Positions 1,110 to 49,609 of a DNA stretch of 64,000 nucleotides are shown here, one piece after another. The stretch lies in IMG/VR virus record IMGVR_UViG_3300037067_027627, one strand, 5' to 3'. The stretch comes from a virus (Duplodnaviria > Heunggongvirae > Uroviricota > Caudoviricetes). Within the stretch, counting starts at the first letter, position 1; each line of letters opens with the position of its first letter. The notes beneath the pieces are model-generated. The model saw only the letters and a list, made by a program, of their open reading frames with translations. It had not been told where the DNA came from and searched no databases. A program made the position numbers and the translations under genes.

Positions 1110-1218
1110 TTACAAAACCCCGCGCGCATGCAATTTTCATATGTTCACTGGGCAATGATATTATTTAAAGATGATCTTCGACGGAATATTAACTGTAAAA
1201 TAGTTCGGAAGAATGATA

Positions 1219-1291
1219 TACTCCCTCCGGGATTTGCACCCGGGTCGCCGGGCTGAGAACCCAGCATGATTGGCTGCTACAACAAGGGAGC
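1219..1291 (-). tRNA. tRNA-Glu (anticodon CTC), archaeal type
   Basis: Acceptor GCTCCCT/AGGGAGT and anticodon arm CTGGG-TTCTCAG-CCCGG. The variable region and T-arm ...GCGACCCGGGTGCAAATCCCGG match the archaeal tRNA-Glu pattern. Discriminator A. T-loop has G55 (TGCAAAT). Confidence 0.7.
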
Positions 1292-1299
1292 AATTACTA

Positions 1300-8851: not shown

Positions 8852-9052
8852 TTAGTTTTTTCTCGCGTACACAAGATATAATCCTTTCCGCACAACAACC
8901 CGTATCTTTCGATATCCTTTTGTATCTTTAAGCCACTCTTTCAATTTATCTTTACATCGTATCGTGGTAGCAAATGCTTGAAAACTAAATCGCTCGTTCT
9001 CAAACCACCGTGTGCGATCCATCCAGTCTAGCGGATCCAGTGAGTATGCCAT
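8852..9052 (-). CDS. Hypothetical small protein
   Basis: 66-aa ORF. Confidence 0.3.
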   Translation of the reverse strand: MAYSLDPLDWMDRTRWFENERFSFQAFATTIRCKDKLKEWLKDTKGYRKIRVVVRKGLYLVYARKN

Positions 9053-9108
9053 AGATATTACATATCATCACGTGTATTTAAATATTATCACATTCAATTC
9101 TCATCAGT

Positions 9109-9978
9109 ATGTTGATCCAGCCACTCCCTCCAGTGGGTGTTCATTACAAAACTGCGTGGGGAGATTCCTATGATTATTACGGCAATCTCGTTGAACAGAA
9201 CTCCAAGCGATGTGTTGGCGGGAGTTATAACGAGTCGTTAGATGCCGTTTATAATGAGTGGACAGAACTTATTTACTACAGATTTTTCAGGAACCATAAG
9301 CACACGATGGCGTTTGGAGACAAACGTTTTAAAGAATCAGAGATCTCAAACGTGGAAGAGGTTGTCACCCGTTTGTATGGAGGGTTCGGGTTCGATTCTC
9401 TTATGCGAATGATAGGTTCCGATCCGAAATTACTTCACGATTCGCTCGATCATGAACGAAGATTGTGGGCGGATAAACTATATATCGAATTCTTTGACAA
9501 GTTTTGCGCAGAGAACTCCATACGCCCAGACCAGATTCCCTCAAACTCGATGGAGTCCATGCGTGATGTGTTCTACAGGCATGCTCTTGATGGCGATATT
9601 GTTACGCGTGACTGGTCAAGAAAATACATGAGTTACATAATCGGGGTAGAAACATCAAACGGGGAAATTTACGAGATGACTGGTGAACAGATGATGTTCG
9701 GGTGGATATGCGGGCACGCAACGCGAAACCTCGCTGGGTTGGTTGTAGGACTTCAACACGGAATAAATGCAATGAATATGGGAAGAAAACCCGGGTTCTT
9801 TGAGAAATTGTTCTTCAAACGAAGGATCGAACAACGAAAACGTGCGATGGGTTGGAATTTTTACGTATATCCATCATCTGCAAAAGGGGACAAACACGAC
9901 ATACGTGTGAATATATATGATGTCGTTCGGTTTTATCCACCTCCACCCGGGGAACCTGTGAGGAACCCGTTACTATGA
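9109..9978 (+). CDS. Hypothetical protein
   Basis: 289-aa ORF. Its stop overlaps the next ATG (ATGA at 9975). Confidence 0.5.
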   Translation: MLIQPLPPVGVHYKTAWGDSYDYYGNLVEQNSKRCVGGSYNESLDAVYNEWTELIYYRFFRNHKHTMAFGDKRFKESEISNVEEVVTRLYGGFGFDSLMRMIGSDPKLLHDSLDHERRLWADKLYIEFFDKFCAENSIRPDQIPSNSMESMRDVFYRHALDGDIVTRDWSRKYMSYIIGVETSNGEIYEMTGEQMMFGWICGHATRNLAGLVVGLQHGINAMNMGRKPGFFEKLFFKRRIEQRKRAMGWNFYVYPSSAKGDKHDIRVNIYDVVRFYPPPPGEPVRNPLL

Positions 9979-10622: not shown

Positions 10623-10704
10623 TAAGTGGAGCCGGATTCGCACCGGCGACGTTTCCTCGTCCAGAATCTCGATCTGGTGGAGTCGGCTTCTGTCCCATCC
10701 ACTT
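10623..10704 (-). tRNA. tRNA-Leu (anticodon GAG)
   Basis: Acceptor AAGTGGA/TCCACTT. Anticodon arm CCAGA-TCGAGAT-TCTGG. Variable hairpin ACGAGGAAACGTC. T-arm GCCGG-TGCGAAT-CCGGC with G55. Discriminator A. Confidence 0.65.
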
Positions 10705-10891: not shown

Positions 10892-10974
10892 AGGACATAA
10901 CAGGATTCGAACCTGTGAAGGGAAATCCCTGTGGATCTGCAATCCACCGCAATTGACCGCTCTGCCATATGCCC
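10892..10974 (-). tRNA. tRNA-Cys (anticodon GCA) with an unusually long (14-nt) variable region
   Basis: Acceptor GGGCATA/TATGTCC. Anticodon arm GTGGA-TTGCAGA-TCCAC. T-arm ACAGG-TTCGAAT-CCTGT. Discriminator U, the universal Cys identity. Extra hairpin AGGGATTTCCCT in the variable position. Confidence 0.55.
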
Positions 10975-11241: not shown

Positions 11242-12366
11242 TTATCGCCGCTCGATTTGTTGTTTTTCTGCATGCATCCGCGTGCTTGAAATTCTTTGCC
11301 CTGTCGCGTCAGTAACCAGTGGTATGAGACAGATGGCAACAGGAGGAAGTGAATACATTTTCCGAAGATCGTTAACGTACTCAGCATTCTCTTTTGTTTC
11401 TTCACTTGCTACGAGAATGTCGTAGAATGGGTTCATTCCGACATCTCCCCACGCATCCACCAGTGGTTTAAACATGTAATCCGCATGATACTTCTTTGAT
11501 TTTATATAGTCTTTTATCTGGTTTATACGAACTTTGTACGGCTGAACCGGATGAGTTTTCTTGCTTGCCATGTGATCGCTTGTAATCCCGATATGTACAG
11601 CTCCCCCGTTCCCAGCAAGAGAGAATGCCGCATCTAATAACGCTCTATGCCCTGCGTGTAAGAGATCGAATGTCCCTCCAACCACAATCTCGGGGCGATT
11701 CATACGAATCATCCCTAGAATATTCTCAACCATTTTATTTCCCAAGAGTTTCTGGATAACCGGGGTATAGAATATCGGATCGCGTCTCATGAGTTTGATA
11801 AGAATATCTTTGCGCGCGCGATAGTATACTGTGGCCGGAACAAAAGCGTATTCTTCCCGTATCCAGTTTTCGATTTCCTCATAATGATGTGACGCCGTGT
11901 AAGCCAAATCAATATCCATAACCAAGGCTTCGTCAGGGTTTCGCGGAGGTTCCACATGTTCTGTCGCCAGAATATACGACTTTATTCGTTCGATAACAAC
12001 GAGATCTGGGGTCTTACCCGATCGGTTGTATAGTTCTGACATTACAGATTCACATCCATCCGCACTTATCCTTACATTTTCATGATCTGTGGAATGGGTG
12101 TCATAAACAATATCGTGGAAGAATAACGCCAGAATTGCTTCGTCCGGGTAATTAAACTCGTGACGGAACCACGCAGCGTTTGATATGCATTCAGTGAGAT
12201 GGTTTATGCTGTGGTATTTACGTGATTTATGCGTATACGGTTTCACTACAGTAATGAAGAAGTAATCGAGACTGTCGTGGAGTCCCAGATTTTCGCATGC
12301 ATCTCGCCACATGTCATATAAATACTGCTGGGATTCCGTTGGTATAGCAATTCTTGAATTTGCCAT
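11242..12366 (-). CDS. HD-domain phosphohydrolase fused to NMN/NaMN adenylyltransferase (NadM/NadD-like cytidylyltransferase fold)
   Basis: The C-terminal half carries the nucleotidyltransferase (H/T)xGH motif, GGTFDLLHAGH. The N-terminal half has HD-like His/Asp residues (HSINHL...FFHDIVYD). Start trimmed to MANSRIAIP at 12366 to remove overlap with the divergent gene. Confidence 0.6.
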   Translation of the reverse strand: MANSRIAIPTESQQYLYDMWRDACENLGLHDSLDYFFITVVKPYTHKSRKYHSINHLTECISNAAWFRHEFNYPDEAILALFFHDIVYDTHSTDHENVRISADGCESVMSELYNRSGKTPDLVVIERIKSYILATEHVEPPRNPDEALVMDIDLAYTASHHYEEIENWIREEYAFVPATVYYRARKDILIKLMRRDPIFYTPVIQKLLGNKMVENILGMIRMNRPEIVVGGTFDLLHAGHRALLDAAFSLAGNGGAVHIGITSDHMASKKTHPVQPYKVRINQIKDYIKSKKYHADYMFKPLVDAWGDVGMNPFYDILVASEETKENAEYVNDLRKMYSLPPVAICLIPLVTDATGQRISSTRMHAEKQQIERR

Positions 12367-12419
12367 AATAACTCTTGATACAGGAAGAATATAAATATAG
12401 CTACTACCATTTTTAATAC

Positions 12420-13580
12420 ATGGATGACATCGCGTGGATGAATGAGCCTGAGGCTGCAAAAGCACTTGTATATAATATGCTCAATGTAACGCGTATTTTG
12501 TCTCCGACAGGAATGGAACGCGAGATGACCGCGTTCTGCAACGAAGAATTAATAAAATGCGGATTTGAAACGCACATCGATACACATGGAAATATAATGG
12601 CAATACGTGGGCGGGATTCCCAAGATAAATTCATTCTTCTTAATTCTCATATGGATACTGTCCCGATAAACAGGCCGCGATCTCGCCTTTCACTTAGAGA
12701 AGAATATGTGAAAAAACGGAACGATATTCTCACTCGCAGGTTTGGTGTAAAATGCAGATATGTATCAGAAGGGAAAGCACTGATAAGAGCGAGAGATCAC
12801 TATGATACATCAGGATCGTTGTCATTTGAAAGTAGGGAAATGCACGAGTTATATGACCAAGAGCACAAGCAATTCCAAGCCGAACTCGAAGATTTAGAAC
12901 GATTTGTGAAAGACAACGAGAAAAACACTGACGTGTGGGTAGAAGAAGTATCAAACCCTTGGGAACCGCAAAGAATAGTATATAATCCAAGTGCTACTGC
13001 CATCGAGATCACCGAAGGACGGGGAGAGATGTATATGGGCGGGGATGATAAAGCCGGGGTTGCGATGATTCTTACTATTGCTCAACTCACGGATTACCCG
13101 TTGAAAATATTATTTACGGTATCAGAGGAAGAATTCGATATACGCGTTCCCGACCCAGACGATTCTGACCGTACTATCCGTGTATCCGGGGTTCACACGA
13201 TTCCCCCCGACTTCTATGACGATGTTGCGTTTGATTTGACACTGGATAAAGGAGAGGGCAATCTGCTTGTTCCAAAAATAAGCGGGAAGTTGTTATGTGG
13301 TGAAGATCTCGTGACTTTCATATTGCATGTATCAGAAATTGCAGATTACCCGCTTAAAGTAGTGGAAGGATTACGATGTGATGCACTTTACATACGTGAC
13401 CATGTTCCAGCCGTGAATATGTCCACGGGATATCACAACCCGCACCGTCCTAACGATTATGTTAATATTATAGAATCGCATAATATGATGGCTCTTGTAC
13501 GCAAAATTATAACAGAATATAATGCAACCAAGCCTGTGTTTGATCGTATTAAGAAAAAGAAACCTAAAACATCCGATTAG
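12420..13580 (+). CDS. M20-family metallopeptidase (ArgE/DapE/peptidase T-like)
   Basis: LNSHMDTV (H-x-D), GGDDKAGVAMILTIAQ (metal-binding Asp) and FTVSEEEFD (EE) form the M20 dinuclear-zinc signature. Confidence 0.65.
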   Translation: MDDIAWMNEPEAAKALVYNMLNVTRILSPTGMEREMTAFCNEELIKCGFETHIDTHGNIMAIRGRDSQDKFILLNSHMDTVPINRPRSRLSLREEYVKKRNDILTRRFGVKCRYVSEGKALIRARDHYDTSGSLSFESREMHELYDQEHKQFQAELEDLERFVKDNEKNTDVWVEEVSNPWEPQRIVYNPSATAIEITEGRGEMYMGGDDKAGVAMILTIAQLTDYPLKILFTVSEEEFDIRVPDPDDSDRTIRVSGVHTIPPDFYDDVAFDLTLDKGEGNLLVPKISGKLLCGEDLVTFILHVSEIADYPLKVVEGLRCDALYIRDHVPAVNMSTGYHNPHRPNDYVNIIESHNMMALVRKIITEYNATKPVFDRIKKKKPKTSD

Positions 13581-19151: not shown

Positions 19152-19546
19152 TCATGCTGATCCTGACCTGATGTGGTGCTCTTCCGTAGTCGTTCTCTTT
19201 CAATCTTCATAATCAATTCATTATACGCGGAATCAGAGAACATACTGGTGTGCCTCTTGATCCACCTTTCCATAATATCCAGCGTTGCGATCGTGGCGGT
19301 GCGGGCTGATTCCTTTGCTGCAATACCCATCATGTATTTACATTCGTCCTTCGTAATTGGTTTCGGTGCCGGGGTGTGCAGATGGAAACTTAAATTAGGA
19401 CACCCCAGTTCTATTTTCATACATTCAGTACATGATTTATATTTATGGCAAGTCCCTATTCCTTTCATTGTGGTTTCACCGGCTTCCTGCAACACTGGCA
19501 TTTGCTCGAACCGAATCAAGAGTTCGAACCACCCCGAGATACTCAC
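19148..19546 (-). CDS. Hypothetical Cys-rich protein
   Basis: 132-aa ORF. Confidence 0.4.
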   Translation of the reverse strand: MSISGWFELLIRFEQMPVLQEAGETTMKGIGTCHKYKSCTECMKIELGCPNLSFHLHTPAPKPITKDECKYMMGIAAKESARTATIATLDIMERWIKRHTSMFSDSAYNELIMKIERERLRKSTTSGQDQHE

Positions 19547-20171
19547 GGAATATCAACGCGTTTGTTGATTTTGGAAGCTTCGTTCTCGTGTAAGCGGCAT
19601 CGATCATGTCTAATAAAGCATCGATCTCATCTCGGTTCGTTGTTGGTGGTGCGGGTTCGAATGCAACACCTTTCCCGTCCAGAAGATTAATACCAAACTG
19701 GAGAGTGCGGAACGCAGATCGCAATGCTTTCTCTTCTGATACAGATCCTTTCCGTTTTGTGATATCAGCTAGTTGACTTATCGCCATCCCACGGACTGAC
19801 CAGTACGTAGATGCAGCCAGATTCTTCGAAACGATATCACGAAGTTTATCATACTCTACGGATCTTGTGATTACATGCGGGCTCATTACTGCCCAAATCG
19901 CATTACAGTTCCCTTTTATAAGTAAATCTACAAGGTGCCCGATCTCCATGAACTGGAACTCCCATTCCCCAAGATCGTTTTCGTGTTTGCGGAATGGCAT
20001 AGTTTCCGGAATTCGCCACCCTTCCAATATTCTTAACGTAGGATATTGATACACTATCATGATGTCGTGGTCACTATCAGGGGTGTCCATCCCCCACATA
20101 TGCGATCCAATTACAGTTCTGAAAAGTTCTTTCCCGGGTAAATTTTGACCGGGAAAAGTTTTAGTTTCCAT
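19476..20171 (-). CDS. Pol-beta-superfamily nucleotidyltransferase (minimal nucleotidyltransferase fold)
   Basis: GSHMWGMDTPDSDHDIMIVY fits the G[SG]-x9-13-D-x-[DE] signature. Confidence 0.55.
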   Translation of the reverse strand: METKTFPGQNLPGKELFRTVIGSHMWGMDTPDSDHDIMIVYQYPTLRILEGWRIPETMPFRKHENDLGEWEFQFMEIGHLVDLLIKGNCNAIWAVMSPHVITRSVEYDKLRDIVSKNLAASTYWSVRGMAISQLADITKRKGSVSEEKALRSAFRTLQFGINLLDGKGVAFEPAPPTTNRDEIDALLDMIDAAYTRTKLPKSTNALIFREYLGVVRTLDSVRANASVAGSR

Positions 20172-21253
20172 TATCGCGCCTCGTTCCTAATCATTTTCTC
20201 TTGTGACCAGTGTTTACTCGTTGTCACGTGACCCGTACGAACATACTTCGCAACGTTCTGGTCGAATTCATTGAATGGGTACGAATACATACTTCTGACC
20301 ACAATTCCTTCGTGCCCGTGTCTAACAACAAGATCACCCCATGATTTCACTTCGCGTTCTAGGTCTCTTGCAGATGATATCCGCATCGGAACCAGTGGGT
20401 ATCCTTGGTGATGTTCATTATACATCTCGTATAACGTCGGTGTCGTAGAGACGTTCAGTATCTGCGCCCAGTCCTTAACCGATGCCCAGCTCGCCCACTC
20501 TGCATGATTGTGATCATAAACTGCGAAAAGTTGCAGGTATCCCCTGTTGAGGGCAAGATCTCCTATATAATGAATGGAGTGTTTCGCATATAACCACTCC
20601 CCAAATATCTGTACACCGTCCGGAATCAGATCCCGCATCACCGCATGCATAGATTTCACCATCGCAAACGATGGGTGTGGGGCATCGTGCGCATTCCGCG
20701 CAGCAACACCACGATTATCGAACGTGACATTACTCCCATCCATCTTCAAAGTGAATACGATATCCTTGTTGCACAGGGATTCCCACGGCATTATCCCATT
20801 TTCACGTTTCTCTTCAACGTGACCCCCGGGACTATTGCGGAAGAATGGAGTATGCGGGTACTTTATGCGTAGTCCTTTTGCGGAGGACAGATTTGGGATC
20901 GTGTGGGGAACGCCCCACTTGTTAAACTCCGTAAATGGTGACTTCACAACGATCAGTTTCTTCGGGTAGATCGCAGGAGAAATCCCGCACCATTTCCTGA
21001 GTTGATTCGGGGTGATTGCGCCTTTCTCTGCATCCATATGATGATTCTCACACAATGGCGCACCGTTCCCGTACACATACCCGCCATTTTCGGTATGTGC
21101 GTCCCACAATGCCCGTTCGAGTATGTGATGAGCGTCAACCGCCGCGTTCTTACACCACGGTACACAACACTTTCCATTATGTATCGCGAATGTTTCTTCC
21201 CGGAACTTCGCCCTTACCGGGTTCTGTTCCTTTCTGTTTGACATTGTTATCAC
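20171..21253 (-). CDS. HNH endonuclease domain fused to an ATP-dependent RNA ligase (Rnl-like nucleotidyltransferase)
   Basis: N-terminal HNH: CCVPWC...DAHHI...LCENHH. Ligase motif I KxDG in VFTLKMDGSNVTF. Motif IV-like EGIVVRS and motif V-like LYAKHSIHY. The first ~70 nt overlap the upstream ORF, so the true start may be downstream. Confidence 0.6.
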   Translation of the reverse strand: MITMSNRKEQNPVRAKFREETFAIHNGKCCVPWCKNAAVDAHHILERALWDAHTENGGYVYGNGAPLCENHHMDAEKGAITPNQLRKWCGISPAIYPKKLIVVKSPFTEFNKWGVPHTIPNLSSAKGLRIKYPHTPFFRNSPGGHVEEKRENGIMPWESLCNKDIVFTLKMDGSNVTFDNRGVAARNAHDAPHPSFAMVKSMHAVMRDLIPDGVQIFGEWLYAKHSIHYIGDLALNRGYLQLFAVYDHNHAEWASWASVKDWAQILNVSTTPTLYEMYNEHHQGYPLVPMRISSARDLEREVKSWGDLVVRHGHEGIVVRSMYSYPFNEFDQNVAKYVRTGHVTTSKHWSQEKMIRNEAR

Positions 21254-25139: not shown

Positions 25140-25504
25140 TTCGTATTGGATTGTGTTTTTTCCACTGTGTCAAATATTCGCATCACATCATTTATATCTG
25201 TTTCGGTGAGCTTACAATCGCGAATCAGGAGATCTCCAAGTGAAGATAAGATCCGCTGACCATTCGTAAGAACAGCGCTCGTTGTTTTCGGGTCTACCTG
25301 CCCCTCGGATATCCCACGTAATGCCCCGGTAAGAGCAAAGATGTCAACAAGAAGTGCCTTTGCAGTGTTGTGATCGGCGCAGAAAATCGTAGGAACAGGG
25401 TTAAGAGTCTGCGCAACAGGATCCGGGTCTGATTGCACGTCTGTTTTTGATTTCTCAAGTACAATCTCGAAGTCGTTTTGTTTGTCCTTGTTTGTATCTG
25501 CCAT
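25136..25504 (-). CDS. Hypothetical protein
   Basis: 122-aa ORF. Confidence 0.45.
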   Translation of the reverse strand: MADTNKDKQNDFEIVLEKSKTDVQSDPDPVAQTLNPVPTIFCADHNTAKALLVDIFALTGALRGISEGQVDPKTTSAVLTNGQRILSSLGDLLIRDCKLTETDINDVMRIFDTVEKTQSNTK

Positions 25505-26896: not shown

Positions 26897-27247
26897 TTAT
26901 GATTCCTTCTTTGGATCACGTTCTTCGATAATCGCCGATAGTAAGATGAGGTAATTTCGGGCATCCGAAACTCGTTGTGAGAACCCTTCTGTAGCTCCAG
27001 TCCCGCCCCACCCCAGCCGTGTTCCGGGTCTCATCGCAGCCTTGGCAATAGCTTGGATATGCTTCATCATAAAAACAAGGCATACTTCTTCCGGGGTGAT
27101 CCCAAGTTGATTCGCGGTTGTCTTGAAGTTAACCAATACATCAGTATCGGCAGCATATTCAGATCGCTTTGTTATGAGGAGACTACGTTCAGCCCCCTCG
27201 AACATATTGTAGAGATTTTCAAAAGATTGTTTATCCATGATCTTCAC
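26897..27247 (-). CDS. Hypothetical protein
   Basis: 116-aa ORF. Confidence 0.45.
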   Translation of the reverse strand: MKIMDKQSFENLYNMFEGAERSLLITKRSEYAADTDVLVNFKTTANQLGITPEEVCLVFMMKHIQAIAKAAMRPGTRLGWGGTGATEGFSQRVSDARNYLILLSAIIEERDPKKES

Positions 27248-28674
27248 ACCTGCGCGTTTCTCCGTACCTGATCAAACGTCCAGTCACGGATAATACTCCC
27301 GTTCAGGAACACCGTGTTCAGGACATTATATCCCGGGACACATACTTCGTTTACAGTTGCATAGTGACCATCCTCACACGTGAGGATAAGCCGCCCGCGT
27401 TTGGAGGCTTTTCGCGCGTCTGATACCGGGCGTTTGTAAACGTCGTGCCATACCCCGTCAATATCGATCGCACTGCACTTGAATGCAAAACTCTGGGTAT
27501 CACGATTGACTTTCTGGAGAAGAGCACCGCCCATCCCGAACACGATATTGGACGGGGCGAACCGATACTTTCCGACAACCTCGTATAAAATCTGACTGAT
27601 CATATCGAGGCTGATGTAATCGCCATAGATAACACTGACGTGTGGATCGAGAACACGATACCCGCGTTCATTAACAGTCCCACCGTAGTGCTTCCACAAA
27701 AGTTCGAGAACCTGCAACGACATCCAAACCGGGTCGCCACTGTCTGGGCGGAGGACAACTTTGCCTTTACGCGCGATGATTTGGTCTTTCAGTAACTCAC
27801 CGAAATATTTGTCTGCTGCACGAATTGCATCGTATGAATCAATAACAACAGATGCAATCGCATCGTCCGGAGCACGACCGATGATCTCACGGTACGCTTC
27901 CTCCTCGTTCCCTTCCCCGTAACTGGTCACAGTTGAATGTTCTGCCGCATAAACGGAAAGGAGAATCGGATCGCGACTCATCTTGGCACTGTAATACTTG
28001 TTTGCATACCGTTTCGCAAGTAGATTGTCGCTCCCGGCGAAGTTCACTAAGTGTGCCATCCCGCCAATACCTGCGGTTTCTACAGATGATGCGCCACGGA
28101 ACCCAAAATCGTTCAGGTGCACAATCGATGCATGTTCACCGGCTTTTACTGCCCACCCTTCGATCACTTTACGAACTTCGCGACTCATTGTGGCTACGGT
28201 AATAGGATACCATACCAATTCAAGAAGTCCCTCGTAGAAGTTTGGAAGCCAGAAAGAATCGGGATCCGTGTTCTCAACGGTCATTAACACATTTTTGACC
28301 GGAACGACCATACCCTCTGGTACAGTCTTGATTTGCAGCGGAAGTTTCCCATCAAGATCGTTCGCAATGTGGCGAAAACCCTTCTCGTTGAAAAACTTAA
28401 ACCCGAATATCTCTTCGCTATCTGCAATAGCCTCGTCAATGGTTTCGTTTGTGATAACCTTCCCGGCGAGATATTTCTTCAAGTAATATTGAGTGCCGAA
28501 GCATACCGTTTCCGGGAACATACCCCCGCGACTCTCTAAATACGAGAACACAGTTCTGGTATTCTTTGGATACTGCATCCAGTGAGTTAATTTATATGCG
28601 TCAGTCGCTTCTTCCATGATGCAATCTGCCAAGATTGCCGCAGTGATAGGATTTTCTTTATTTACTTTGTCCAC
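27244..28674 (-). CDS. Nicotinamide phosphoribosyltransferase (NAMPT / NadV-like)
   Basis: 476 aa. The motifs GIGGMAHLVNFAGSDN and NIVFGMGGALLQ match NAMPT-family signatures; the overall length also fits. Confidence 0.7.
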   Translation of the reverse strand: MDKVNKENPITAAILADCIMEEATDAYKLTHWMQYPKNTRTVFSYLESRGGMFPETVCFGTQYYLKKYLAGKVITNETIDEAIADSEEIFGFKFFNEKGFRHIANDLDGKLPLQIKTVPEGMVVPVKNVLMTVENTDPDSFWLPNFYEGLLELVWYPITVATMSREVRKVIEGWAVKAGEHASIVHLNDFGFRGASSVETAGIGGMAHLVNFAGSDNLLAKRYANKYYSAKMSRDPILLSVYAAEHSTVTSYGEGNEEEAYREIIGRAPDDAIASVVIDSYDAIRAADKYFGELLKDQIIARKGKVVLRPDSGDPVWMSLQVLELLWKHYGGTVNERGYRVLDPHVSVIYGDYISLDMISQILYEVVGKYRFAPSNIVFGMGGALLQKVNRDTQSFAFKCSAIDIDGVWHDVYKRPVSDARKASKRGRLILTCEDGHYATVNEVCVPGYNVLNTVFLNGSIIRDWTFDQVRRNAQV

Positions 28675-34064: not shown

Positions 34065-34091
34065 GTAATCACCAGAAAAATAGTGCGGTGA

Positions 34092-35589
34092 TTATCTCAC
34101 CGCGTTGATGTCAATCCTCTCGACTTCATCGACAAGTGTAGTTCCATTCATCTCGTAAAGATTCAGGAACCGCAGAGAGTTGTCTGCCCACCCGCCAACT
34201 GTGCAGTGCTTCCGCTCGCCCTCTGGGAACTGCGTGGTTCCGTAGTGCGCCAGATCGAACGTGTACACGAACGGGTTGTTTCCGGTCTTGATACGGAACG
34301 ACCTGAAAGCATCGTAGCAACTTGGTCGCCCGTATCCCTGCTCGTCCGTGAAGAAGATAATCCGGTCTACATCAGGCATATCCTTTGCGACTGCGCTAAT
34401 ACACAGTCCGGTGTGGGTTGATCCGCCGGTTCTATCTCCAGCATCACGTATCTTGTCTACGTTTGTGAGGATACTGTCCCGTGGGTTTGCCCGAACAATC
34501 GACACGCTTGTACCGAATGCGTATACCTTGCAATCATCAGCGCGCGATGCAACCATAGCTCCGAAGACGTTTCCGATATCCTTGTGAGTTACCATAGACT
34601 TCTCGTGGATACTACTGTTCATCGATCCGCTGTTATCACAGAATACCGCAGTTTTCCCCGGGATGCAAGTCATATTCTCTGCGCTAACCGCCATTGCGTC
34701 TGACAGTGCCGCCTTGATCTTCTCTACCCCGTTGTAGTTAAGGCTCTCGATCTGTCTGTATGCAGTGTAGTACTGCACCGGGATCATTCGTGATCTACGC
34801 ACACGATCTTCATCTGCAACTTCTGCACAAACATCACTGATGTTGACACCGCGCTTCATAAGGTTGCGAAGGTTTCGGATGATACCAAGGTATCCCATTG
34901 CATCAAGGATGTGTGTCCAGTTCTTCTTTGTGGAACCGTTGACCATGATATAGTTCTCCCATGTCTCCGGAAGAGGCAGAGTGCCACCGATAATGTTCTG
35001 GAACATTGTCTCCTGCCCATCGCGTGGCTTTGGGTGTGTCAGGAACATAACGTCCCGTGGCTTGATCATCATGTCATCCTTCGTATACTTGGCAAACTGG
35101 TAACTGTCGAAGCTCACGAACGCCTTCGCAAGACCGCGCTTGATCGCCATTGGCAGGTAAGTTCTCTCCATCTTGTACTGCTTGTTCAGCATCATACAAT
35201 ATGCAAGAAGCTCTGTCATGTCGTCCACACGCTTGATCGACTTCGCAACGTAGTTCGAACCATTCGGGATGTCCTTTGCCCCTGCGTAGATCGCCTCAGC
35301 GAGAATCACCGTTGTGGGTGTTCTCATGTTGAACCGGTTACGCGTGTACCAAGCACCTTTGAGTGCGAGTTCCGGGTCATCCGATCTCGAAATGTTCCGG
35401 ATAAGATCGACAAATCTCTTGTTCGATGCCTCTCCCGACTCGTAAAACGTATTCATCTTCGCAACGGTTGTTGCCGCGCGCAGGATGAACTCCAGCTTCT
35501 CGGATGGCTTGAATGCCTCTCCACCCTCGTAGTTCACGGTGACCTTTGCAGCCACCTTTCTCTTTCCAACTGTCTTGTTAAACTGCATG
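34092..35589 (-). CDS. rsr: Ro60-like TROVE-domain protein with a C-terminal vWA domain (Rsr ortholog)
   Basis: ~500 aa, alpha-helical repeat N-terminal region plus C-terminal MIDAS FCDNSGSM; this architecture and length match Ro60/Rsr. Start placed at MQFNK, which has SD GAGGTGA 6 nt upstream. Confidence 0.65.
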
Positions 35590-35633
35590 TTTCTCACCTC
35601 ATGAGATTGTATTCGCATCACGATACGGTGAAA

Positions 35634-35686
35634 GCGGAATGGCGGGGTTGCACCGCAGCGCGCAAGGCTTCAAGCCCTTATTCCGC
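35634..35686 (-). ncRNA. tRNA-like mini-RNA: acceptor-like stem GCGGAAU/AUUCCGC enclosing a T-arm-like hairpin (UGCAACC loop) and a second hairpin
   Basis: Perfect 7-bp inverted repeat closes two internal hairpins. Same strand as rsr and 45 nt upstream of it. Confidence 0.35.
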
Positions 35687-35877
35687 ATTGATCGAAAGTG
35701 GGGTTATCATGTGGATCTGGTTTAATATTTGTTTCAGATCGTTTGTGACACTTCGGGAAACGACCAAACCCGGACGGAGTTGAACCGCCTAATTTTAGTT
35801 CCGTAGACTAATGTGTAACCGAAGTAACCATTTCCAATCGCATCCCCACCAAATTTACATGAGACCTGAATGGAACG

Positions 35878-35980
35878 TGGAGAGATTGTGCGGGTCAGGC
35901 TTTGCCCTTTCGGGCGAGTTACGGATTCATGTGTAGTGAAATATAACGATGAAACCTTCCCCTGTCGCAACTCCACTGTG
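35878..35980 (-). ncRNA. Y-RNA-like structured RNA, unit A
   Basis: Minus-strand RNA. Terminal helices GUGGAG..CUCCAC and UGCG..CGCA around an internal loop. Internal hairpin UCGCCC-GAAA-GGGCAA (GNRA loop). Conserved block GCGACAGGGGAAGGUUUCAUCGUU shared with unit B. Confidence 0.45.
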
Positions 35981-35996
35981 TAAACATAATAGCAAT

Positions 35997-36090
35997 GGTG
36001 CGTTATTATGCGGGTCTCGCAGCCCTCCCCGAAGGGAGGAATTGTTAACCTAGATGTAAACGATGAAACGATTCCCTGTCGCATCGCACC
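35997..36090 (-). ncRNA. Y-RNA-like structured RNA, unit B (tandem paralog of A)
   Basis: Terminal helices GGUGCG..CGCACC and AUGCG..CGCAU. Hairpin CUCCC-UUCG-GGGAG (UNCG loop). T-arm-like GGGC-UGCGAGA-CCCG. Tetraloops are canonical only in the minus sense. Confidence 0.45.
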
Positions 36091-36154
36091 TATTGCATTG
36101 TGTTCTTGTTATTACTTATGTATGTTCGATTCTGTATATATAACTTGTCACAAA

Positions 36155-36418
36155 TCACCCATCATCAGGATCTTTGCGTTCACATTCTGCACATTTTGTG
36201 TAGATTTTGCTGCGTATGTCCAGTATTACATTTGCAACCGCGCATGCTTGCGTAAACGTCAACGGAATTTCCGTGGTGTTTACTGGGTCTTCTATGACCA
36301 TCACGTAGTCACGGAACCACCCACGCTTCAGCAGAAGACCAGACAACTTACTGTTAAGCTTCGTCAATGAAACCGTTGTGTTGTTCGTAGTGCATTCTAT
36401 AATCACTCTCTGCAACAT
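36155..36418 (-). CDS. Hypothetical protein
   Basis: Start at MLQRVIIE, preceded by GAGGTGAAAAGA-ATG. The ORF-track start is a GTG inside the leader. Confidence 0.45.
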   Translation of the reverse strand: MLQRVIIECTTNNTTVSLTKLNSKLSGLLLKRGWFRDYVMVIEDPVNTTEIPLTFTQACAVANVILDIRSKIYTKCAECERKDPDDG

Positions 36419-43278: not shown

Positions 43279-43656
43279 CTATTTAAAATAAAAGTTTGGT
43301 TTGGAACGTACACGCACTGATTCGAGCCTTTCTTCCGCGCGTGCAATATCTATATCGACAATACTATCCCGGCCATCTAGGACATTTGCGATCTCCAATA
43401 AGTCATTCGCCATAGTACGCAGATCGTTTGCGATTGGGTGGAACCGTTCTTTCGACTTCTTGAGATCGAATATCGCATATGTTAACCAGTTGGAAGAGAT
43501 ATCACCGCTTGTCATCAGTTCACGGCACTCTGGATATTTATTCCCCATCACGTATACCTCCGGCTCCCCATTCTTAATCTGATTGAGAAGTTCGCGCACT
43601 TCCTGTTCTACGATCATGAGTTGCGCTTCAACCGGTAACTTCCTGCGTGATGCCAT
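43279..43656 (-). CDS. Hypothetical protein
   Basis: 125-aa ORF. Confidence 0.45.
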   Translation of the reverse strand: MASRRKLPVEAQLMIVEQEVRELLNQIKNGEPEVYVMGNKYPECRELMTSGDISSNWLTYAIFDLKKSKERFHPIANDLRTMANDLLEIANVLDGRDSIVDIDIARAEERLESVRVRSKPNFYFK

Positions 43657-43881
43657 ACTATATTGGAAGTTTCACTACTATTTAAATCAAACCCGGGTAA
43701 TGCAGATGTTTATAAAGATCCCCGTTCAACAATTTTATATGAAACCCGCATTAGTCCACAACAGGGGTGTCAAAAAATTTCGTAGAACAACCGCAACTGT
43801 ACAGTTTGGATGGTTGATCAAATCCGGTTTGGTGCTAATCGTACTTCTCGCTACTATCGTTGCCGTATCTGGTGTAATATC

Positions 43882-46324: not shown

Positions 46325-47089
46325 CTACCTAGTTAAAAATATCAGTAACAGAACCCCGGCTGCAATATATAAATTCTTATTATTTCCGTTACCGGCGTCT
46401 TCATATAAAACATACAACGGATTCTGCGGGGTAACAACAACCTCTGGAGTGACAACTTCTGGAGTAACGACTTCCGGGGTAACAACCTCTGGAATAACAA
46501 CCTCTGGAGTAACATTGCATCCTATTCCATAGCAATCACACCCCAGATAAGTGTTTACAAGATACGCATAATACTCTACAAGTATCGCGGTGTGATTCGA
46601 TCCACTACTATACCCGGATGCATCATTTGCGAACCCGGGGTAATGCGCAGAACCCGATGTACGCAAGTATTCGGTAAATCCGGCACGTTCGTTGCTCAGC
46701 ATATCATCAGCAGGGATATAGGAGCCAGTTGGAGTCCGATAGCAATGTATAATTTCATGCCACATGCGTGCGCCAGCTTCCCCGGGAGTATCATAACTCC
46801 AATGCCCAATCGAAGCCTGATACAACTCTCTTACTGCAATCCCTCCGATGTTCCATATAAATCGAGAATCCGATTGCGAAGAGATGATAATTGTATTGGG
46901 TGATACCGGAAACGGAACGGTGGAATTATTCGATGTCTTGTACACCCACATATTATCAAACGGCGTTTGAAAAACGAAATGTATACATGATGGAATGCCA
47001 GCGGATCCTATCCATCCACGTATTGTAGATTCCGTTATCGATGGATCAAGATTTATAACCGTCCACAAATTTTGAAACGCCATGTGCAA
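46325..47089 (-). CDS. Membrane-anchored putative zinc metalloprotease (HExxH) with a PEVV(T) tandem-repeat stalk and a C-terminal TM anchor
   Basis: HEIIH motif. (TPEVV)x5 is encoded by a 15-nt tandem repeat at ~46425-46500. Terminal hydrophobic segment LYIAAGVLLLIFL. Confidence 0.5.
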   Translation of the reverse strand: MHMAFQNLWTVINLDPSITESTIRGWIGSAGIPSCIHFVFQTPFDNMWVYKTSNNSTVPFPVSPNTIIISSQSDSRFIWNIGGIAVRELYQASIGHWSYDTPGEAGARMWHEIIHCYRTPTGSYIPADDMLSNERAGFTEYLRTSGSAHYPGFANDASGYSSGSNHTAILVEYYAYLVNTYLGCDCYGIGCNVTPEVVIPEVVTPEVVTPEVVTPEVVVTPQNPLYVLYEDAGNGNNKNLYIAAGVLLLIFLTR

Positions 47090-47145
47090 CGTTTCAGTAT
47101 AGCGCGTGGGTTATATTTAAATATATCCGGCGCACTCCTTATAGT

Positions 47146-47829
47146 ATGGCAACCCTTGCATGGAATATAAAGTTACTCGGTAACCTTACGGAGAGGGATT
47201 TTGCAGCATGGGCGAAAGCTGCTAATATCCCAACAATTTATAACTTCAATGTTACCACCGAGGATACTAAACGGGATACGTCTTACTGGGAGGATGAGCA
47301 TCAACCAAATACCATACTAGTTCCGGAAGACAACAATACGATCATCGTAGGAAGCAAAGAAAGCGCAGTGAGTTTCGAACCATATTGTTATGCTGGCAAC
47401 CGATGTATCATGATGGCCCAGCGCGATGATTTCACCACTGGGACAGAACTACTCGCGCTGATTCTTATATGCGATGGTCTTCTTAGCAAAGACGTTCTTA
47501 ACAAGCTAATGGATAACGTCGATCTCGGTACATGGATCCAGAAAAATCAACCTGACGCTCTCAACGCATATAACCATCGCGACACACTCGTTGCTTCCGA
47601 TGGGTATATAGACGAAAGCAATACAGAAGGAGAAAAGTTAAAGAACGCAACATGCCAATATGTTGTGAAGGTGCTAGGATTAGGGAAACCTGCGACAACG
47701 ACAACAACGACGACAACTACAACAACCACTCCGACAACGAAAACTTCGACGATGATGTATGTGCTTGGGGGTGGGGCACTTGTGGCTGCTCTCTTGGCGT
47801 ATTATGCTCACAAGAAATCCAGTCAGTAA
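47146..47829 (+). CDS. Membrane-anchored protein with a poly-Thr stalk and C-terminal TM anchor; distant paralog of 46325..47089
   Basis: TTTTTTTTTTTPTTKTS stalk, then MMYVLGGGALVAALLAYYAHKK. The N-terminal regions of the two align loosely (NIPTIYNF vs GIPSCIHF; NTIIVGSK vs NTIIISSQ). Confidence 0.5.
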   Translation: MATLAWNIKLLGNLTERDFAAWAKAANIPTIYNFNVTTEDTKRDTSYWEDEHQPNTILVPEDNNTIIVGSKESAVSFEPYCYAGNRCIMMAQRDDFTTGTELLALILICDGLLSKDVLNKLMDNVDLGTWIQKNQPDALNAYNHRDTLVASDGYIDESNTEGEKLKNATCQYVVKVLGLGKPATTTTTTTTTTTTPTTKTSTMMYVLGGGALVAALLAYYAHKKSSQ

Positions 47830-49117: not shown

Positions 49118-49552
49118 TTATTGGTTGATGTTGGTATCAGCCGTGTACTTGGGATCTTTTACCCAAACGGAGCAAGCCTTCTGGTTGTTGTGGTTCAATG
49201 TCTTGATCGCACCAACCTTCGTCTTGATAGTTACATCTGGATAGAATGTGTGCCCGTAGTACTTGGTGCTGCCCTGCGCATACTTGTAGGTATGTGAGAC
49301 AACCTCGTGCGCCTCTCCACCAACAAACGTGTCGAATGTTCCCTTGATCACATTCCCGTCGTCAGTCTTGAGTGCATATTCGGTCACAACCTGATCCCCG
49401 GATCCGGGGGTTGCCACGATTGTGAATGTTACTGTCAGCGGGGATAATCCACCAACATACGTCGGAAGAATATATACACCCGGTTCTACTGCCCCTGCGG
49501 GGACGATGTTTGTGCCTTCTGGCATGTAGTCAACCATTTGTCGATTCACCAA
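49118..49552 (-). CDS. Hypothetical protein
   Basis: 144-aa ORF. Confidence 0.45.
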   Translation of the reverse strand: MVNRQMVDYMPEGTNIVPAGAVEPGVYILPTYVGGLSPLTVTFTIVATPGSGDQVVTEYALKTDDGNVIKGTFDTFVGGEAHEVVSHTYKYAQGSTKYYGHTFYPDVTIKTKVGAIKTLNHNNQKACSVWVKDPKYTADTNINQ

Positions 49553-49609
49553 TCAGGTATATAGCATTCTTACATATTTAAAGATACCGTGCGGCAGGTA
49601 TATGAATTT

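What the first reader, a model, noticed from the sequence alone, without database searches (positions are those of the whole stretch)
34092..36112. Ro60/TROVE (Rsr) homolog with an upstream ~520-nt non-coding block holding two tandem Y-RNA-like paralogs and a tRNA-like mini-RNA
The 498-aa ORF at 34092..35589 has the Ro60 architecture: a long helical N-terminal region plus a C-terminal vWA domain with the DNSGSM MIDAS motif.

Directly upstream on the same minus strand, 35590-36150 has no credible ORF. The ORF-track entry 35734..36084 runs straight through obviously structured, duplicated sequence.

Read in the minus sense, the block contains two adjacent ~95-105-nt units, A (35878-35980) and B (35997-36090). 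They share:
- the block GCGACAGGG(G)AA..GUUUCAUCGUU;
- a 3' strand ..GACCCGCA..;
- long terminal helices formed by the 5' and 3' ends (A: GUGGAG/CUCCAC plus UGCG/CGCA; B: GGUGCG/CGCACC plus AUGCG/CGCAU), each interrupted by an asymmetric internal loop on the 3' side (CAAU vs AAUAA);
- an internal hairpin at the same relative position, but with different sequence and different stable tetraloops (A: UCGCCC-GAAA-GGGCAA; B: CUCCC-UUCG-GGGAG).

GNRA and UNCG tetraloops appear only in the minus sense, which fixes the strand. A terminal stem with a bulged helix plus internal stem-loops is the defining architecture of Y RNAs, the Ro60 ligands.

Bacterial Y RNAs (Salmonella YrlA, Deinococcus Yrn1, mycobacteriophage Y RNAs) are encoded next to rsr and often carry tRNA-like T/D-arm modules. 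Here unit B has a T-arm-like GGGC-UGCGAGA-CCCG. A separate 53-nt element (35634-35686) has a perfect 7-bp acceptor-like stem GCGGAAU/AUUCCGC enclosing a UGCAACC T-loop-like hairpin. A canonical T-arm GGCGG-UUCAACU-CCGUC sits at ~35770-35790.

This is a strong candidate for an archaeal-type (virus-borne) Ro60 / Y-RNA ribonucleoprotein module. Rsr/Y RNA has been described in bacteria and in a few bacteriophages, but to my knowledge not in an archaeal-virus context.
Basis: partly seen in the sequence, partly recalled or inferred. Interest (0 to 1): 0.9.

Follow-up and report, generated by a model that had tools for sequence, protein, structure and literature searches.

The report
Ro60 gene with three Y RNAs
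A mobile element or virus that uses archaeal-style promoters carries a Ro60 RNA-binding protein gene preceded by three small structured Y RNAs, which extends a module known from bacteria and phages to an archaeal setting.

Summary
The core of the finding is real. The ORF 34092-35588 (-) is a full-length Ro60/TROVE protein. It hits Pfam TROVE and vWA_Ro60, the AlphaFold2 model has pLDDT 91.5, and the 13 best PDB fold matches are all Ro60.

The 566-nt gene-free block upstream holds three tandem Y-RNA-like genes, not two:
- B: 35996-36091.
- A: 35876-35977.
- C: 35697-35850.

Nineteen homologous units from 10 loci (the window and 9 related metagenomic loci) share one fold: 96.7% of cells are paired and 15 of 19 pairs show compensatory changes. 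A covariance model built from them gave 126 hits at E<=1 across the window and 163 TROVE loci, every one on the TROVE strand, including canonical bacterial YrlA. A model built only from bacterial YrlA has unit C as its best hit in the window.

TTTAWATA boxes lie exactly 30-32 nt before start codons, which marks an archaeal transcription system.

The "T arm" in unit B is not one. The 53-nt "mini-tRNA" is lineage-specific and unsupported. TROVE proteins were already noted in archaeal viruses.

Verdict: a new member of a known kind, moderately interesting. A conserved Y-like half-site in the mRNA leader, next to the ribosome-binding site, suggests autoregulation; this is untested.

The parts
36135..36142 (-). 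TATA box (TATATATA; TTTATATA in relatives) of the Y-RNA/Ro60 transcription unit. The predicted start is near 36112, about 22 nt downstream.
   Evidence: An exact TTTATATA lies 33-55 nt before the first unit in 9 related loci. The same box-to-start spacing (22-24 nt) is seen at six leaderless genes and one tRNA gene of the window. No sigma-70-type site is found here.
35996..36091 (-). Y RNA unit B. It has terminal stem P1 (GGUGCG/CGCACC), a 3' loop AAUAA, the motif AUGCGACAG, helices P3 and P4, the motif UCAUCG, and a P5 hairpin with a UUCG loop.
   Evidence: Model R1 scores it 84.1 bits. The fold has z -3.4. Covariation is shown on alignment A3.
35876..35977 (-). Y RNA unit A. It has the same architecture, with P1 GUGGAG/CUCCAC and a P5 hairpin with a GAAA loop.
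   Evidence: Model R1 scores it 70.9 bits. The fold has z -2.9. Covariation is shown on alignment A3.
35697..35850 (-). Y RNA unit C, YrlA-like. It has the Y stem plus a partial tRNA-like module:
- V hairpin at 35795-35811, with a 7-nt loop CUACGGA.
- T arm at 35773-35789.
- Tentative H-type pseudoknot at 35737-35772.
- No D arm.
   Evidence: It was not in R1's training set, yet scores 46.9 bits at E 8e-12. It is the best window hit of model R2, built from bacterial YrlA only: 25.9 bits, E 1e-4. On four homologues 96.6% of cells are paired and 14 of 37 pairs are compensatory. Rfam gives a partial tRNA match of 17 bits over 35773-35830.
35634..35686 (-). 53-nt insertion specific to this lineage. 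It has a 7-bp closing stem and a hairpin GCGG-UGCAACC-CCGC whose loop matches the G55 T-loop variant of this genome's own tRNAs. Its status is unresolved.
   Evidence: The fold has z -0.87. No homologue other than the identical contig L005 was found, and ARAGORN is negative. It is absent from L107, L109, L110 and L111. The T-loop variant is seen in window tRNAs.
35594..35631 (-). Conserved mRNA leader hairpin UCACC-GUA-UCGUG-[AUGCGAAUACAAUCU]-CAUGA-GGUGA. It carries a Y-RNA-like half-site (GUGAUGCGAAUA, 35610-35621) and pairs the Shine-Dalgarno GGUGA (35594-35598).
   Evidence: The 12-mer GTGWTGCGAAYA is present ~30-40 nt before the ATG in all 10 loci of the 51-100% protein-identity clade and in no other of 165 loci. 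The same fold is predicted in 4 of 5 loci, but its stability is not above shuffles.
34092..35588 (-). Ro60/TROVE (Rsr-like) protein gene, 498 aa: HEAT-repeat ring plus a vWA domain with a complete MIDAS motif.
34075..34103 (-). Terminator-like hairpin overlapping the stop codon, followed by the first T5 run of the unit.
   Evidence: Found. There is no run of four or more T between the TATA box and the ATG.

Best explanation
This is a self-contained Ro60-Y RNA ribonucleoprotein cassette of an archaeal virus or other large archaeal mobile element.

**Transcription and processing (inferred).**
- One TATA-box promoter (36135-36142) drives a single transcript that starts near 36112.
- It runs through three tandem Y RNAs (B, A, C), a short leader and the Ro60 mRNA.
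- It ends at a hairpin plus T5 run just after the stop codon.
- The Y RNAs are presumably cut out of this precursor.

**Assembly (inferred by homology to X. laevis Ro60-Y3, D. radiodurans Rsr-Yrn1 and phage phiLo Ro60-Yrl2).**
- Each Y RNA binds the outer face of the Ro60 ring through its base.
- The base is the covarying terminal stem, the conserved 5' strand (A/U)UGCGA(U/C)AG with a bulge, and the 3' loop (G/A)AU(A/C)(A/U)C.
- The apical parts point away and act as adaptors.
- Units A and B carry only a tetraloop hairpin, like YrlB.
- Unit C carries a partial tRNA mimic that would recruit a tRNA-binding factor.

**Likely role (inferred).**
- The RNP probably gates or redirects RNA surveillance, decay or repair during infection.
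- It would act together with the element's own RNA ligase/RlaP pair and its many tRNA genes.
- Archaea lack PNPase, so the effector must differ from that of the bacterial RYPER complex.

**Shown here.** The protein's identity, the RNA folds and their conservation, linkage and co-orientation with TROVE genes, homology to bacterial YrlA, and the archaeal promoter geometry.
For: **Protein**
- Pfam TROVE and vWA_Ro60 hits.
- Phage phiLo Ro60 (PDB 9KOP/9L5Y) at E 5e-36 over residues 17-479.
- AlphaFold2 pLDDT 91.5; the top 13 PDB fold hits are all Ro60.
- MIDAS residues are invariant.

**RNA**
- Nineteen units from 10 loci (window plus 9 relatives) give 96.7% paired cells, against 72.5% in shuffles and at most 49% when the partner is slid. 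Fifteen of 19 pairs have compensatory changes.
- R1 hits the window only at the three units.
- R1 gives 126 hits at E<=1 in the window plus 163 TROVE loci. All are on the TROVE strand, either just upstream or just downstream of the gene.
- The hits include canonical bacterial YrlA with T arm, acceptor-like stem and D arm.
- The reciprocal model R2, built from 12 bacterial YrlA, has unit C as its best window hit.
- The unit C fold is supported on four homologues.

**Layout**
- It equals that of phage phiLo, where two Y-like RNAs upstream of Ro60 bind the protein in vitro (PMC12135203).
- Y RNAs near rsr on the same strand are the rule in bacteria and phages (PMC4201824).

**Archaeal transcription**
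- TTTAWATA is 5-fold enriched in intergenic DNA.
- Six of 12 boxes lie exactly 30-32 nt before a start codon with no Shine-Dalgarno. Two pairs are palindromic divergent promoters.
- One box lies 31 nt before a tRNA gene.
- TTTATATA is conserved before the first Y RNA in 9 relatives.

**Context**
- RNA ligase and RlaP, at least 14 tRNA genes, and an NAD salvage gene.
Against: - There are no expression data: no RNA ends, and no proof of processing or of binding.
- Rfam finds no Y RNA family here. However, it also fails on canonical bacterial YrlA.
- R1 does not detect the experimentally validated phiLo Yrl1/2, nor anything significant in HGTV-1.
- The Ro-binding motif differs from the published GNCGAAN0-1G / CGAA at one position.
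- Unit C lacks the D arm that makes the YrlA elbow.
- The pseudoknot rests on only three independent sequences.
- The host is inferred from promoters, not identified.
- No virion genes were found in the window.
Confidence: 0.82

Rival explanations
1. The 520-nt block is a structured cis-acting 5' UTR of the Ro60 mRNA, made of tandem regulatory domains, and does not yield separate trans-acting RNAs.
For: There is one promoter-like box, and no T run of four or more and no terminator between the units and the ORF. The leader next to the Shine-Dalgarno repeats the 5' motif of the units.
Against: Homologous RNAs lie downstream of TROVE in at least nine other loci, for example L026, L030, L037, L039, L040, L052, L066, L067 and L080. 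A 5' UTR role therefore cannot be the conserved function. Bacterial Y RNAs are known to be processed from operon transcripts (PMC4201824). The units end in closed terminal stems typical of stable RNAs.
Confidence: 0.1
2. The units are decayed tRNA genes or remnants of a tRNA array with no present function.
For: The genome is rich in tRNA genes. Unit C holds a T arm and gives a partial Rfam tRNA match. Y RNAs are thought to derive from tRNA (bioRxiv 10.1101/312249).
Against: Units A and B have no tRNA features. A non-tRNA fold is maintained by compensatory changes across loci whose proteins are only 45-83% identical. ARAGORN finds no tRNA here.
Confidence: 0.04
3. The block encodes a protein, the 116-aa ORF 35734-36084.
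For: An ATG-initiated ORF exists there.
Against: Gene callers left the equivalent gap empty in five related contigs. Homologous units differ by indels that are not multiples of three, and substitutions come in paired, helix-preserving form. The ORF spans two paralogous RNA units and part of a third.
Confidence: 0.01

Closest known systems
Thermus phage phiLo Ro60 with Yrl1/Yrl2 (PDB 9KOP, 9L5Y; PMC12135203)
   Same: It is the best solved sequence homologue of the window protein (E 5e-36). It has the same layout, with tandem Y-like RNA genes directly upstream of Ro60 on the same strand. Each RNA has a stem-bulge-stem with a CGA(A) motif.
   Different: - phiLo has two RNAs rather than three, and a bacterial host that supplies PNPase.
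- The phiLo Yrls are not detected by the model built from this family.
- No tRNA-like module is reported there, and no archaeal promoters.
Bacterial YrlA / YrlB Y RNAs encoded next to rsr (Salmonella, Mycobacterium, Rhizobium and others; PMC4201824; bioRxiv 10.1101/312249)
   Same: - The shared core is ..GCG(A)UAG.. / ..GG(U/A)UACUUCG.. / ..CGCnnG(A)UCUC...
- Both have a terminal stem with a 3' asymmetric loop.
- The module order is Y stem, then V hairpin, T arm and acceptor-like hairpin.
- Covariance models detect each other's members in both directions.
- Units A and B resemble the short YrlB type.
   Different: - Unit C has no D stem-loop, so the D/T elbow that defines YrlA cannot form in the usual way.
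- The acceptor-like hairpin may be pseudoknotted.
- The motif has one extra base (GCGAUAG against GCGUAG or GCGAAG).
- Transcription is of the archaeal type.
Deinococcus radiodurans Yrn1 with Rsr and PNPase (the RYPER complex)
   Same: Yrn1 is a Y RNA with a T-arm-like stem-loop but without a full D arm (PMC4201824). It is encoded upstream of rsr.
   Different: The PNPase partner is not expected in archaea (own knowledge). There is no sequence-level link beyond the shared motif.
TROVE proteins of archaeal mobile elements: HGTV-1 gene 129, Asgard 'Nidhogg' viruses, and Borgs
   Same: These are Ro60/TROVE genes in archaeal viruses or elements. HGTV-1 is 29% identical to the window protein.
   Different: No Y RNAs are described for them in the papers found. 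In HGTV-1 only a weak, non-significant resemblance lies upstream of the gene (4.5 bits).

Membership tests
Ro60 / TROVE (Rsr) protein | N-terminal HEAT-repeat TROVE ring | tested here: met
   Pfam TROVE at 2.5e-22. AlphaFold2 pLDDT is 91.5. Foldseek gives TM 0.75-0.78 to X. laevis and human Ro60 and also hits D. radiodurans Rsr and phiLo Ro60; the top 13 hits are all Ro60.
Ro60 / TROVE (Rsr) protein | C-terminal vWA domain with MIDAS (DxSxS...T...D) | tested here: met
   Pfam vWA_Ro60 at 1.4e-6. D318, S320, S322, T391 and D415 are invariant in 63 homologues.
Ro60 / TROVE (Rsr) protein | Binds Y RNA on the outer surface and misfolded RNA in the central hole | not testable with these tools
   This needs EMSA, RIP or a structure.
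Y RNA (bacterial/phage type) | Encoded close to the Ro60 gene and on the same strand | tested here: met
   All three units lie 109-503 nt upstream of the ATG on the minus strand. All 126 R1 hits are on the TROVE strand.
Y RNA (bacterial/phage type) | 5' and 3' ends form a long stem interrupted by a bulge or asymmetric loop | tested here: met
   P1, P2, a 4-nt bulge, P3 and P4 are present. Fifteen of 19 pairs are compensatory and 96.7% of cells are paired.
Y RNA (bacterial/phage type) | Ro-binding motif GNCGAAN0-1G (CGAA) near the 5' end, followed by YUAY | tested here: inconclusive
   The units have (A/U)UGCGA(U/C)AG. This matches CGA and the final G but has U or C where the consensus has A. 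The YUAY motif is present as UUAC, GUAC or AUAC in ..UACUUCG.
Y RNA (bacterial/phage type) | Recognised by a model built from accepted members | tested here: met
   R2, built from 12 bacterial YrlA, gives unit C 25.9 bits at E 1e-4 as the best hit in 64 kb. Units A and B are not hit by R2. Rfam has no model that detects even bacterial YrlA.
YrlA subfamily (tRNA-mimicking Y RNA) | T stem-loop with UUCRANY loop | tested here: met
   GGCGG-UUCAACU-CCGUC lies at 35773-35789. Two of its five pairs are compensatory across four homologues.
YrlA subfamily (tRNA-mimicking Y RNA) | D stem-loop whose GG pairs with the T loop to form the tRNA elbow | tested here: not met
   Unit C and its three homologues have no D arm. 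R2 aligns that segment poorly. Unit C is therefore YrlA-like, closer to Yrn1, and not a full YrlA.
Y RNA (any) | Stable RNA bound by Ro60 in vivo | not testable with these tools
   No expression or binding data are available.
Metazoan Y_RNA (Rfam RF00019) | Scores with the Rfam model | tested here: not met
   No hit at E<=10 in 35500-36300.
tRNA (for the 53-nt element 35634-35686) | Cloverleaf recognised by tRNA finders | tested here: not met
   ARAGORN in standard, relaxed and mitochondrial modes finds nothing. Rfam finds nothing. The fold is not better than shuffles.
Archaeal transcription unit | TATA box about 22-24 nt upstream of the transcription start, and leaderless mRNAs | tested here: met
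   This is inferred from sequence geometry; no transcription-start mapping exists.

The most novel reading that the evidence does not exclude
The Ro60 mRNA leader is itself a minimal Y-RNA mimic. Its hairpin (35594-35631) presents the 5' Ro-binding strand GUGAUGCGAA and a 3' AAUCU loop, and its closing helix contains the Shine-Dalgarno sequence. Free Ro60, not titrated by the three co-transcribed Y RNAs, would bind its own leader and shut off translation. This would set the protein-to-Y-RNA ratio from a single transcript. Taken together with a D-arm-less, pseudoknotted tRNA mimic in a host domain that lacks PNPase, the cassette would be the first archaeal Ro-Y RNP, with a new effector and a new feedback loop.
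Probability: 0.25. Interest if true: 0.65.

Novelty: new member of a known kind. Interest (0 to 1): 0.52.

Why it matters
Ro60-Y RNA particles are studied in animals (as a lupus autoantigen), bacteria and a few phages. In the papers I could search, only the protein has been noted in archaeal viruses and Borgs.

This locus and its roughly ten relatives offer three things:
- Concrete, covariation-supported Y RNA genes in an archaeal transcription setting.
- A ready covariance model that also finds bacterial YrlA, which Rfam 15 misses.
- A testable question: what does a Ro-Y RNP tether to in organisms without PNPase?

The finding also adds to the picture of large viruses and mobile elements that carry RNA-repair kits, here tRNA genes, an RNA ligase with RlaP, and Ro60 with Y RNAs.

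Tried and rejected
- **Rfam.** The whole window at gathering thresholds and the block at E<=10 gave no Y RNA family. The only hits were a chance mir-2822 match and a sub-threshold tRNA match. This proved uninformative, because Rfam also misses canonical bacterial YrlA.
- **Nucleotide search of phage records.** Megablast of the locus found nothing.
- **IMG/VR with the single protein.** Nothing was found.
- **R1 on phiLo and HGTV-1.** No significant hit. The resemblance I saw by eye upstream of HGTV-1 gene 129 remains only a lead.
- **Naming the host.** An integrase homologue sits on a 1.7-Mb contig of an unbinned metagenome. GTDB hits are ambiguous: a 'Saccharibacteria' MAG contig at 45% identity, probably mis-binned, and a Methanobacteriota MAG at 32%.
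- **Virion genes.** Pfam or PHROGs on about 50 ORFs, and tblastn of two large ORFs, found none.
- **Extra copies of the leader 12-mer.** They lie inside ORFs at 25175, 24014 and 26526, so I judged them chance.
- **53-nt element as a tRNA or a repeat.** Rejected.
- **Leader hairpin stability.** It is not above shuffles, so the autoregulation idea rests on sequence conservation only.
Full report
**1. The observation**

The minus-strand ORF runs from the ATG at 35588 to the stop at 34092 and encodes 498 aa. The gene upstream ends at 36155, which leaves 566 nt (35589-36154) without a credible gene.

The listed ORF 35734-36084 crosses the repeated, structured sequence. Gene callers left the equivalent ~500-740-nt gap empty in five related contigs.

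They have the motifs, terminal helices, 3'-side loop and GAAA/UUCG hairpins described.

**2. The protein**

- Pfam gives TROVE (2.5e-22) and the Ro60-type vWA domain (1.4e-6).
- The best solved relative is the Ro60 of Thermus phage phiLo, at E 5e-36 over residues 17-479.
- An AlphaFold2 model built on 63 homologues has mean pLDDT 91.5.
- Its 13 best PDB fold matches are all Ro60. They include X. laevis 1YVP and 2I91, human Ro60, D. radiodurans Rsr 2NVO and phiLo, with TM up to 0.78 over the full length.
- The MIDAS residues D318, S320, S322, T391 and D415 are invariant.

**3. The RNAs: three units, not two**

The protein database holds close relatives at 45-83% identity, from metagenomes only. 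I fetched DNA for them (L001-L003, L005, L107-L113).

Their upstream regions align with the window and share one plan:
- an exact TTTATATA box;
- two or three tandem units, each beginning stem + (A/U)UGCG(A/C/U)UAG and ending CGCnnGAU(A/C)(A/U)C + stem;
- a conserved leader.

An alignment of 19 simple units from 10 loci (window plus 9 relatives; A3) gives a common fold:
- a 6-bp terminal stem P1;
- an invariant GC/CG pair step P2;
- a 4-nt bulge (G-A-Y-A);
- P3 of 3 bp and P4 of 4 bp;
- a tetraloop hairpin P5.

In this fold 96.7% of cells are paired, against 72.5% after shuffling and at most 49% when partners are slid. Fifteen of 19 pairs carry compensatory double changes.

**4. Specificity and linkage**

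The covariance model R1 built from A3 finds exactly three hits in the 64-kb window. These are B (84 bits), A (71 bits) and C (47 bits, E 8e-12). Unit C was not in the training set.

Across 163 TROVE loci R1 gives 123 further hits at E<=1. The loci come from metagenomes, IMG/VR, GTDB genomes and two phage records. Every hit is on the TROVE-coding strand, mostly within 500 nt upstream or just downstream of the gene.

**5. Relation to known Y RNAs**

R1's hits in named bacterial genomes are canonical YrlA RNAs with T arm, closed acceptor-like stem and D arm. The genomes include Hoeflea, Rhizobiaceae, Dehalococcoidia, Moraxella and Acidobacteriota.

The shared core is GCG(A)UAG, GG(U/A)UACUUCG and CGCnnG(A)UCUC. 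The first motif corresponds to the published GNCGAAN0-1G, with one differing position in this family. UUAC, GUAC and AUAC correspond to the published YUAY (PMC4201824).

In the reciprocal test, a model made only from 12 bacterial YrlA (A6/R2) has unit C as its best window hit. The hit is at the identical coordinates, 25.9 bits, E about 1e-4. The other hits are tRNA-tRNA junctions, which are expected false positives for a permuted tRNA shape.

Rfam 15 finds no Y family in the window. It also misses these bacterial YrlA, so that negative result carries no weight.

R1 does not detect the experimentally validated phiLo Yrl1/2.

**6. Unit C**

On four homologues (A5) the Y stem plus three further elements give 96.6% paired cells and 14 of 37 compensatory pairs:
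- a V hairpin with a 7-nt CUNNNRA loop;
- a 5-bp T arm;
- two interlocked helices, CGGG/CCCG and GGUCGUUU/AAACGAUC, which form an H-type pseudoknot.

The module order (V, T, acceptor-like hairpin) is that of YrlA, but there is no D stem-loop. The D/T elbow defines YrlA (bioRxiv 10.1101/312249). Unit C is therefore YrlA-like rather than a full member, and is nearer to D. radiodurans Yrn1.

The pseudoknot rests on three independent sequences and is tentative.

**7. Other elements of the block**

- **53-nt element (35634-35686).** It is an insertion found only in this lineage. It has no homologue beyond the identical contig L005, no tRNA call, and a fold z of -0.87. Its hairpin loop UGCAACC matches an unusual G55 T-loop variant of the element's own tRNAs. 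That is suggestive but unproven.
- **Leader (35594-35631).**
  - It is conserved in the whole clade. The 12-mer GTGWTGCGAAYA occurs ~30-40 nt before the ATG in 10 of 10 loci and nowhere else among 165 loci.
  - It repeats the units' 5' strand and a 3' AAUCU loop. Its predicted hairpin pairs the Shine-Dalgarno GGUGA.
  - Its stability is not above shuffles, and only one-sided changes (G-C to G-U) occur. The autoregulation idea is therefore a hypothesis.
- **End of the unit.** A hairpin plus T5 run directly follows the stop codon. No run of four or more T occurs between the TATA box and the ATG. This fits a single transcription unit.

**8. What kind of genome this is**

TTTAWATA boxes are five times denser in intergenic than in coding DNA. 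Six of the 12 boxes that lie upstream of ORFs start exactly 30-32 nt before a start codon, with no Shine-Dalgarno. Two pairs are palindromic divergent promoters. Another box sits 31 nt before a tRNA gene.

This is the geometry of archaeal TATA promoters with leaderless mRNAs (own knowledge of methanogen and haloarchaeal promoters). No sigma-70-type site lies at the Y-RNA promoter.

More distant relatives point the same way:
- L006-L010 carry an archaeal RNase P RNA.
- L014 has a class I tRNA-Tyr.
- L119 is binned as Methanobacteriota.

The window also holds at least 14 tRNA genes, an RNA ligase next to RlaP, NAMPT, an integrase, a LAGLIDADG endonuclease and a DUF932 protein. No capsid or terminase gene was found. 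'Archaeal mobile element, probably a virus' is as far as the evidence goes.

**9. Mechanism**

By homology, Ro60 binds the base of each Y RNA (P1, the motif with its bulge, and the 3' loop). The apical modules act as adaptors. This mirrors Rsr-Yrn1-PNPase in Deinococcus and the phiLo Ro60-Yrl-PNPase complex.

Archaea lack PNPase (own knowledge). The effector recruited by unit C's tRNA-like module is therefore unknown. tRNA-processing or tRNA-modifying enzymes, or the element's own RNA-repair enzymes, are the natural candidates.

All of this is inferred, since nothing is known about expression.

**10. Novelty**

Y RNAs next to Ro60 are well known in bacteria and phages. TROVE proteins have been noted in HGTV-1, in Asgard viruses and in Borgs. 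I found no paper describing Y RNAs in an archaeal setting. That library is incomplete.

I rate this a new member of a known kind with some variant features: three tandem units, a D-arm-less and possibly pseudoknotted tRNA mimic, and a Y-like leader. Interest is moderate.

Noticed in passing
L004 436-560; L017 412-533; L014 1999-2124; L099 101-226 (and probably 2804-2942): In distant TROVE loci there are natural-order, tRNA-shaped RNAs with a free acceptor stem, D arm, V region and T arm. Their anticodon arm is replaced by a loop-closed, circularly permuted Ro-binding Y stem (..CGCnUGUUCUCC-loop-GGUUGCG(A)UAG..GUUACUUCG). Rfam's tRNA model scores them 41-47 bits; ARAGORN does not call them. They look like un-permuted counterparts of YrlA and would fit the idea that Y RNAs arose from tRNA. 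I did not find them described.
   Followed up: partly
L006 1414-1678 (also L007-L010): An archaeal-type RNase P RNA (RF00373, 169.5 bits) sits inside a dense tRNA array, about 1.3 kb upstream of a TROVE gene with Y-like RNAs, on soil metagenome contigs of GC 0.62. An RNase P RNA on what looks like a mobile tRNA island or virus would be unusual.
   Followed up: no
window 1218-1292, 1622-1695, 2156-2227, 2568-2638, 10623-10704 (all -): Several of the element's tRNAs (Glu, Asp, His, Leu-GAG and one found only by Rfam) have T loops reading UGCRA or CGCAA. That is G in place of the near-universal U55. The same variant loop occurs in the 53-nt element and in the Y RNA of L002.
   Followed up: no
window 10892-10974 (-); L099 1816-1901: tRNA-Cys(GCA) genes of 83 and 86 nt with a long variable arm, a class II shape that is not normal for tRNA-Cys.
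   Followed up: no
window 8852-9140, 43656-43700, 46325-47180, 49552-49600: TTTAAATA boxes lie exactly 22-24 nt before ATG with no Shine-Dalgarno. Two are palindromic boxes serving divergent gene pairs (8852-9052/9109-9978 and 46325-47089/47146-47829). This indicates leaderless, archaeal-type transcription units.
   Followed up: yes
window 19476-21253 (-): An RNA ligase (PF09414) lies directly next to an RlaP (RNA repair pathway Pol-beta family) gene, about 13 kb from the Ro60 cassette. NAMPT (27244-28674) and an NMNAT-like cytidylyltransferase (11242-12465) suggest NAD salvage. Together they look like an RNA-repair and counter-defence kit.
   Followed up: partly
L163 (HGTV-1, NC_021328) ~2400-2490, upstream of gene 129: By eye there is a Y-like stem (GGUGCGA-GGGAGUCGG-AUACUUC ... 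CCGACUUCC-AAUUUC-AACCG) just before the TROVE gene of this cultured haloarchaeal virus. The covariance model gives only 4.5 bits (E 0.49 in 321 nt), so this is a lead and not a finding. HGTV-1 would be an experimentally tractable system.
   Followed up: partly
L115 (CAZNOW010000005.1, 60.9 kb): A contig binned as Candidatus Saccharibacteria carries the same TROVE gene and Y RNAs as metagenome locus L002 (45% identity to the window protein). The binning is probably wrong, and the contig likely belongs to this family of elements.
   Followed up: no
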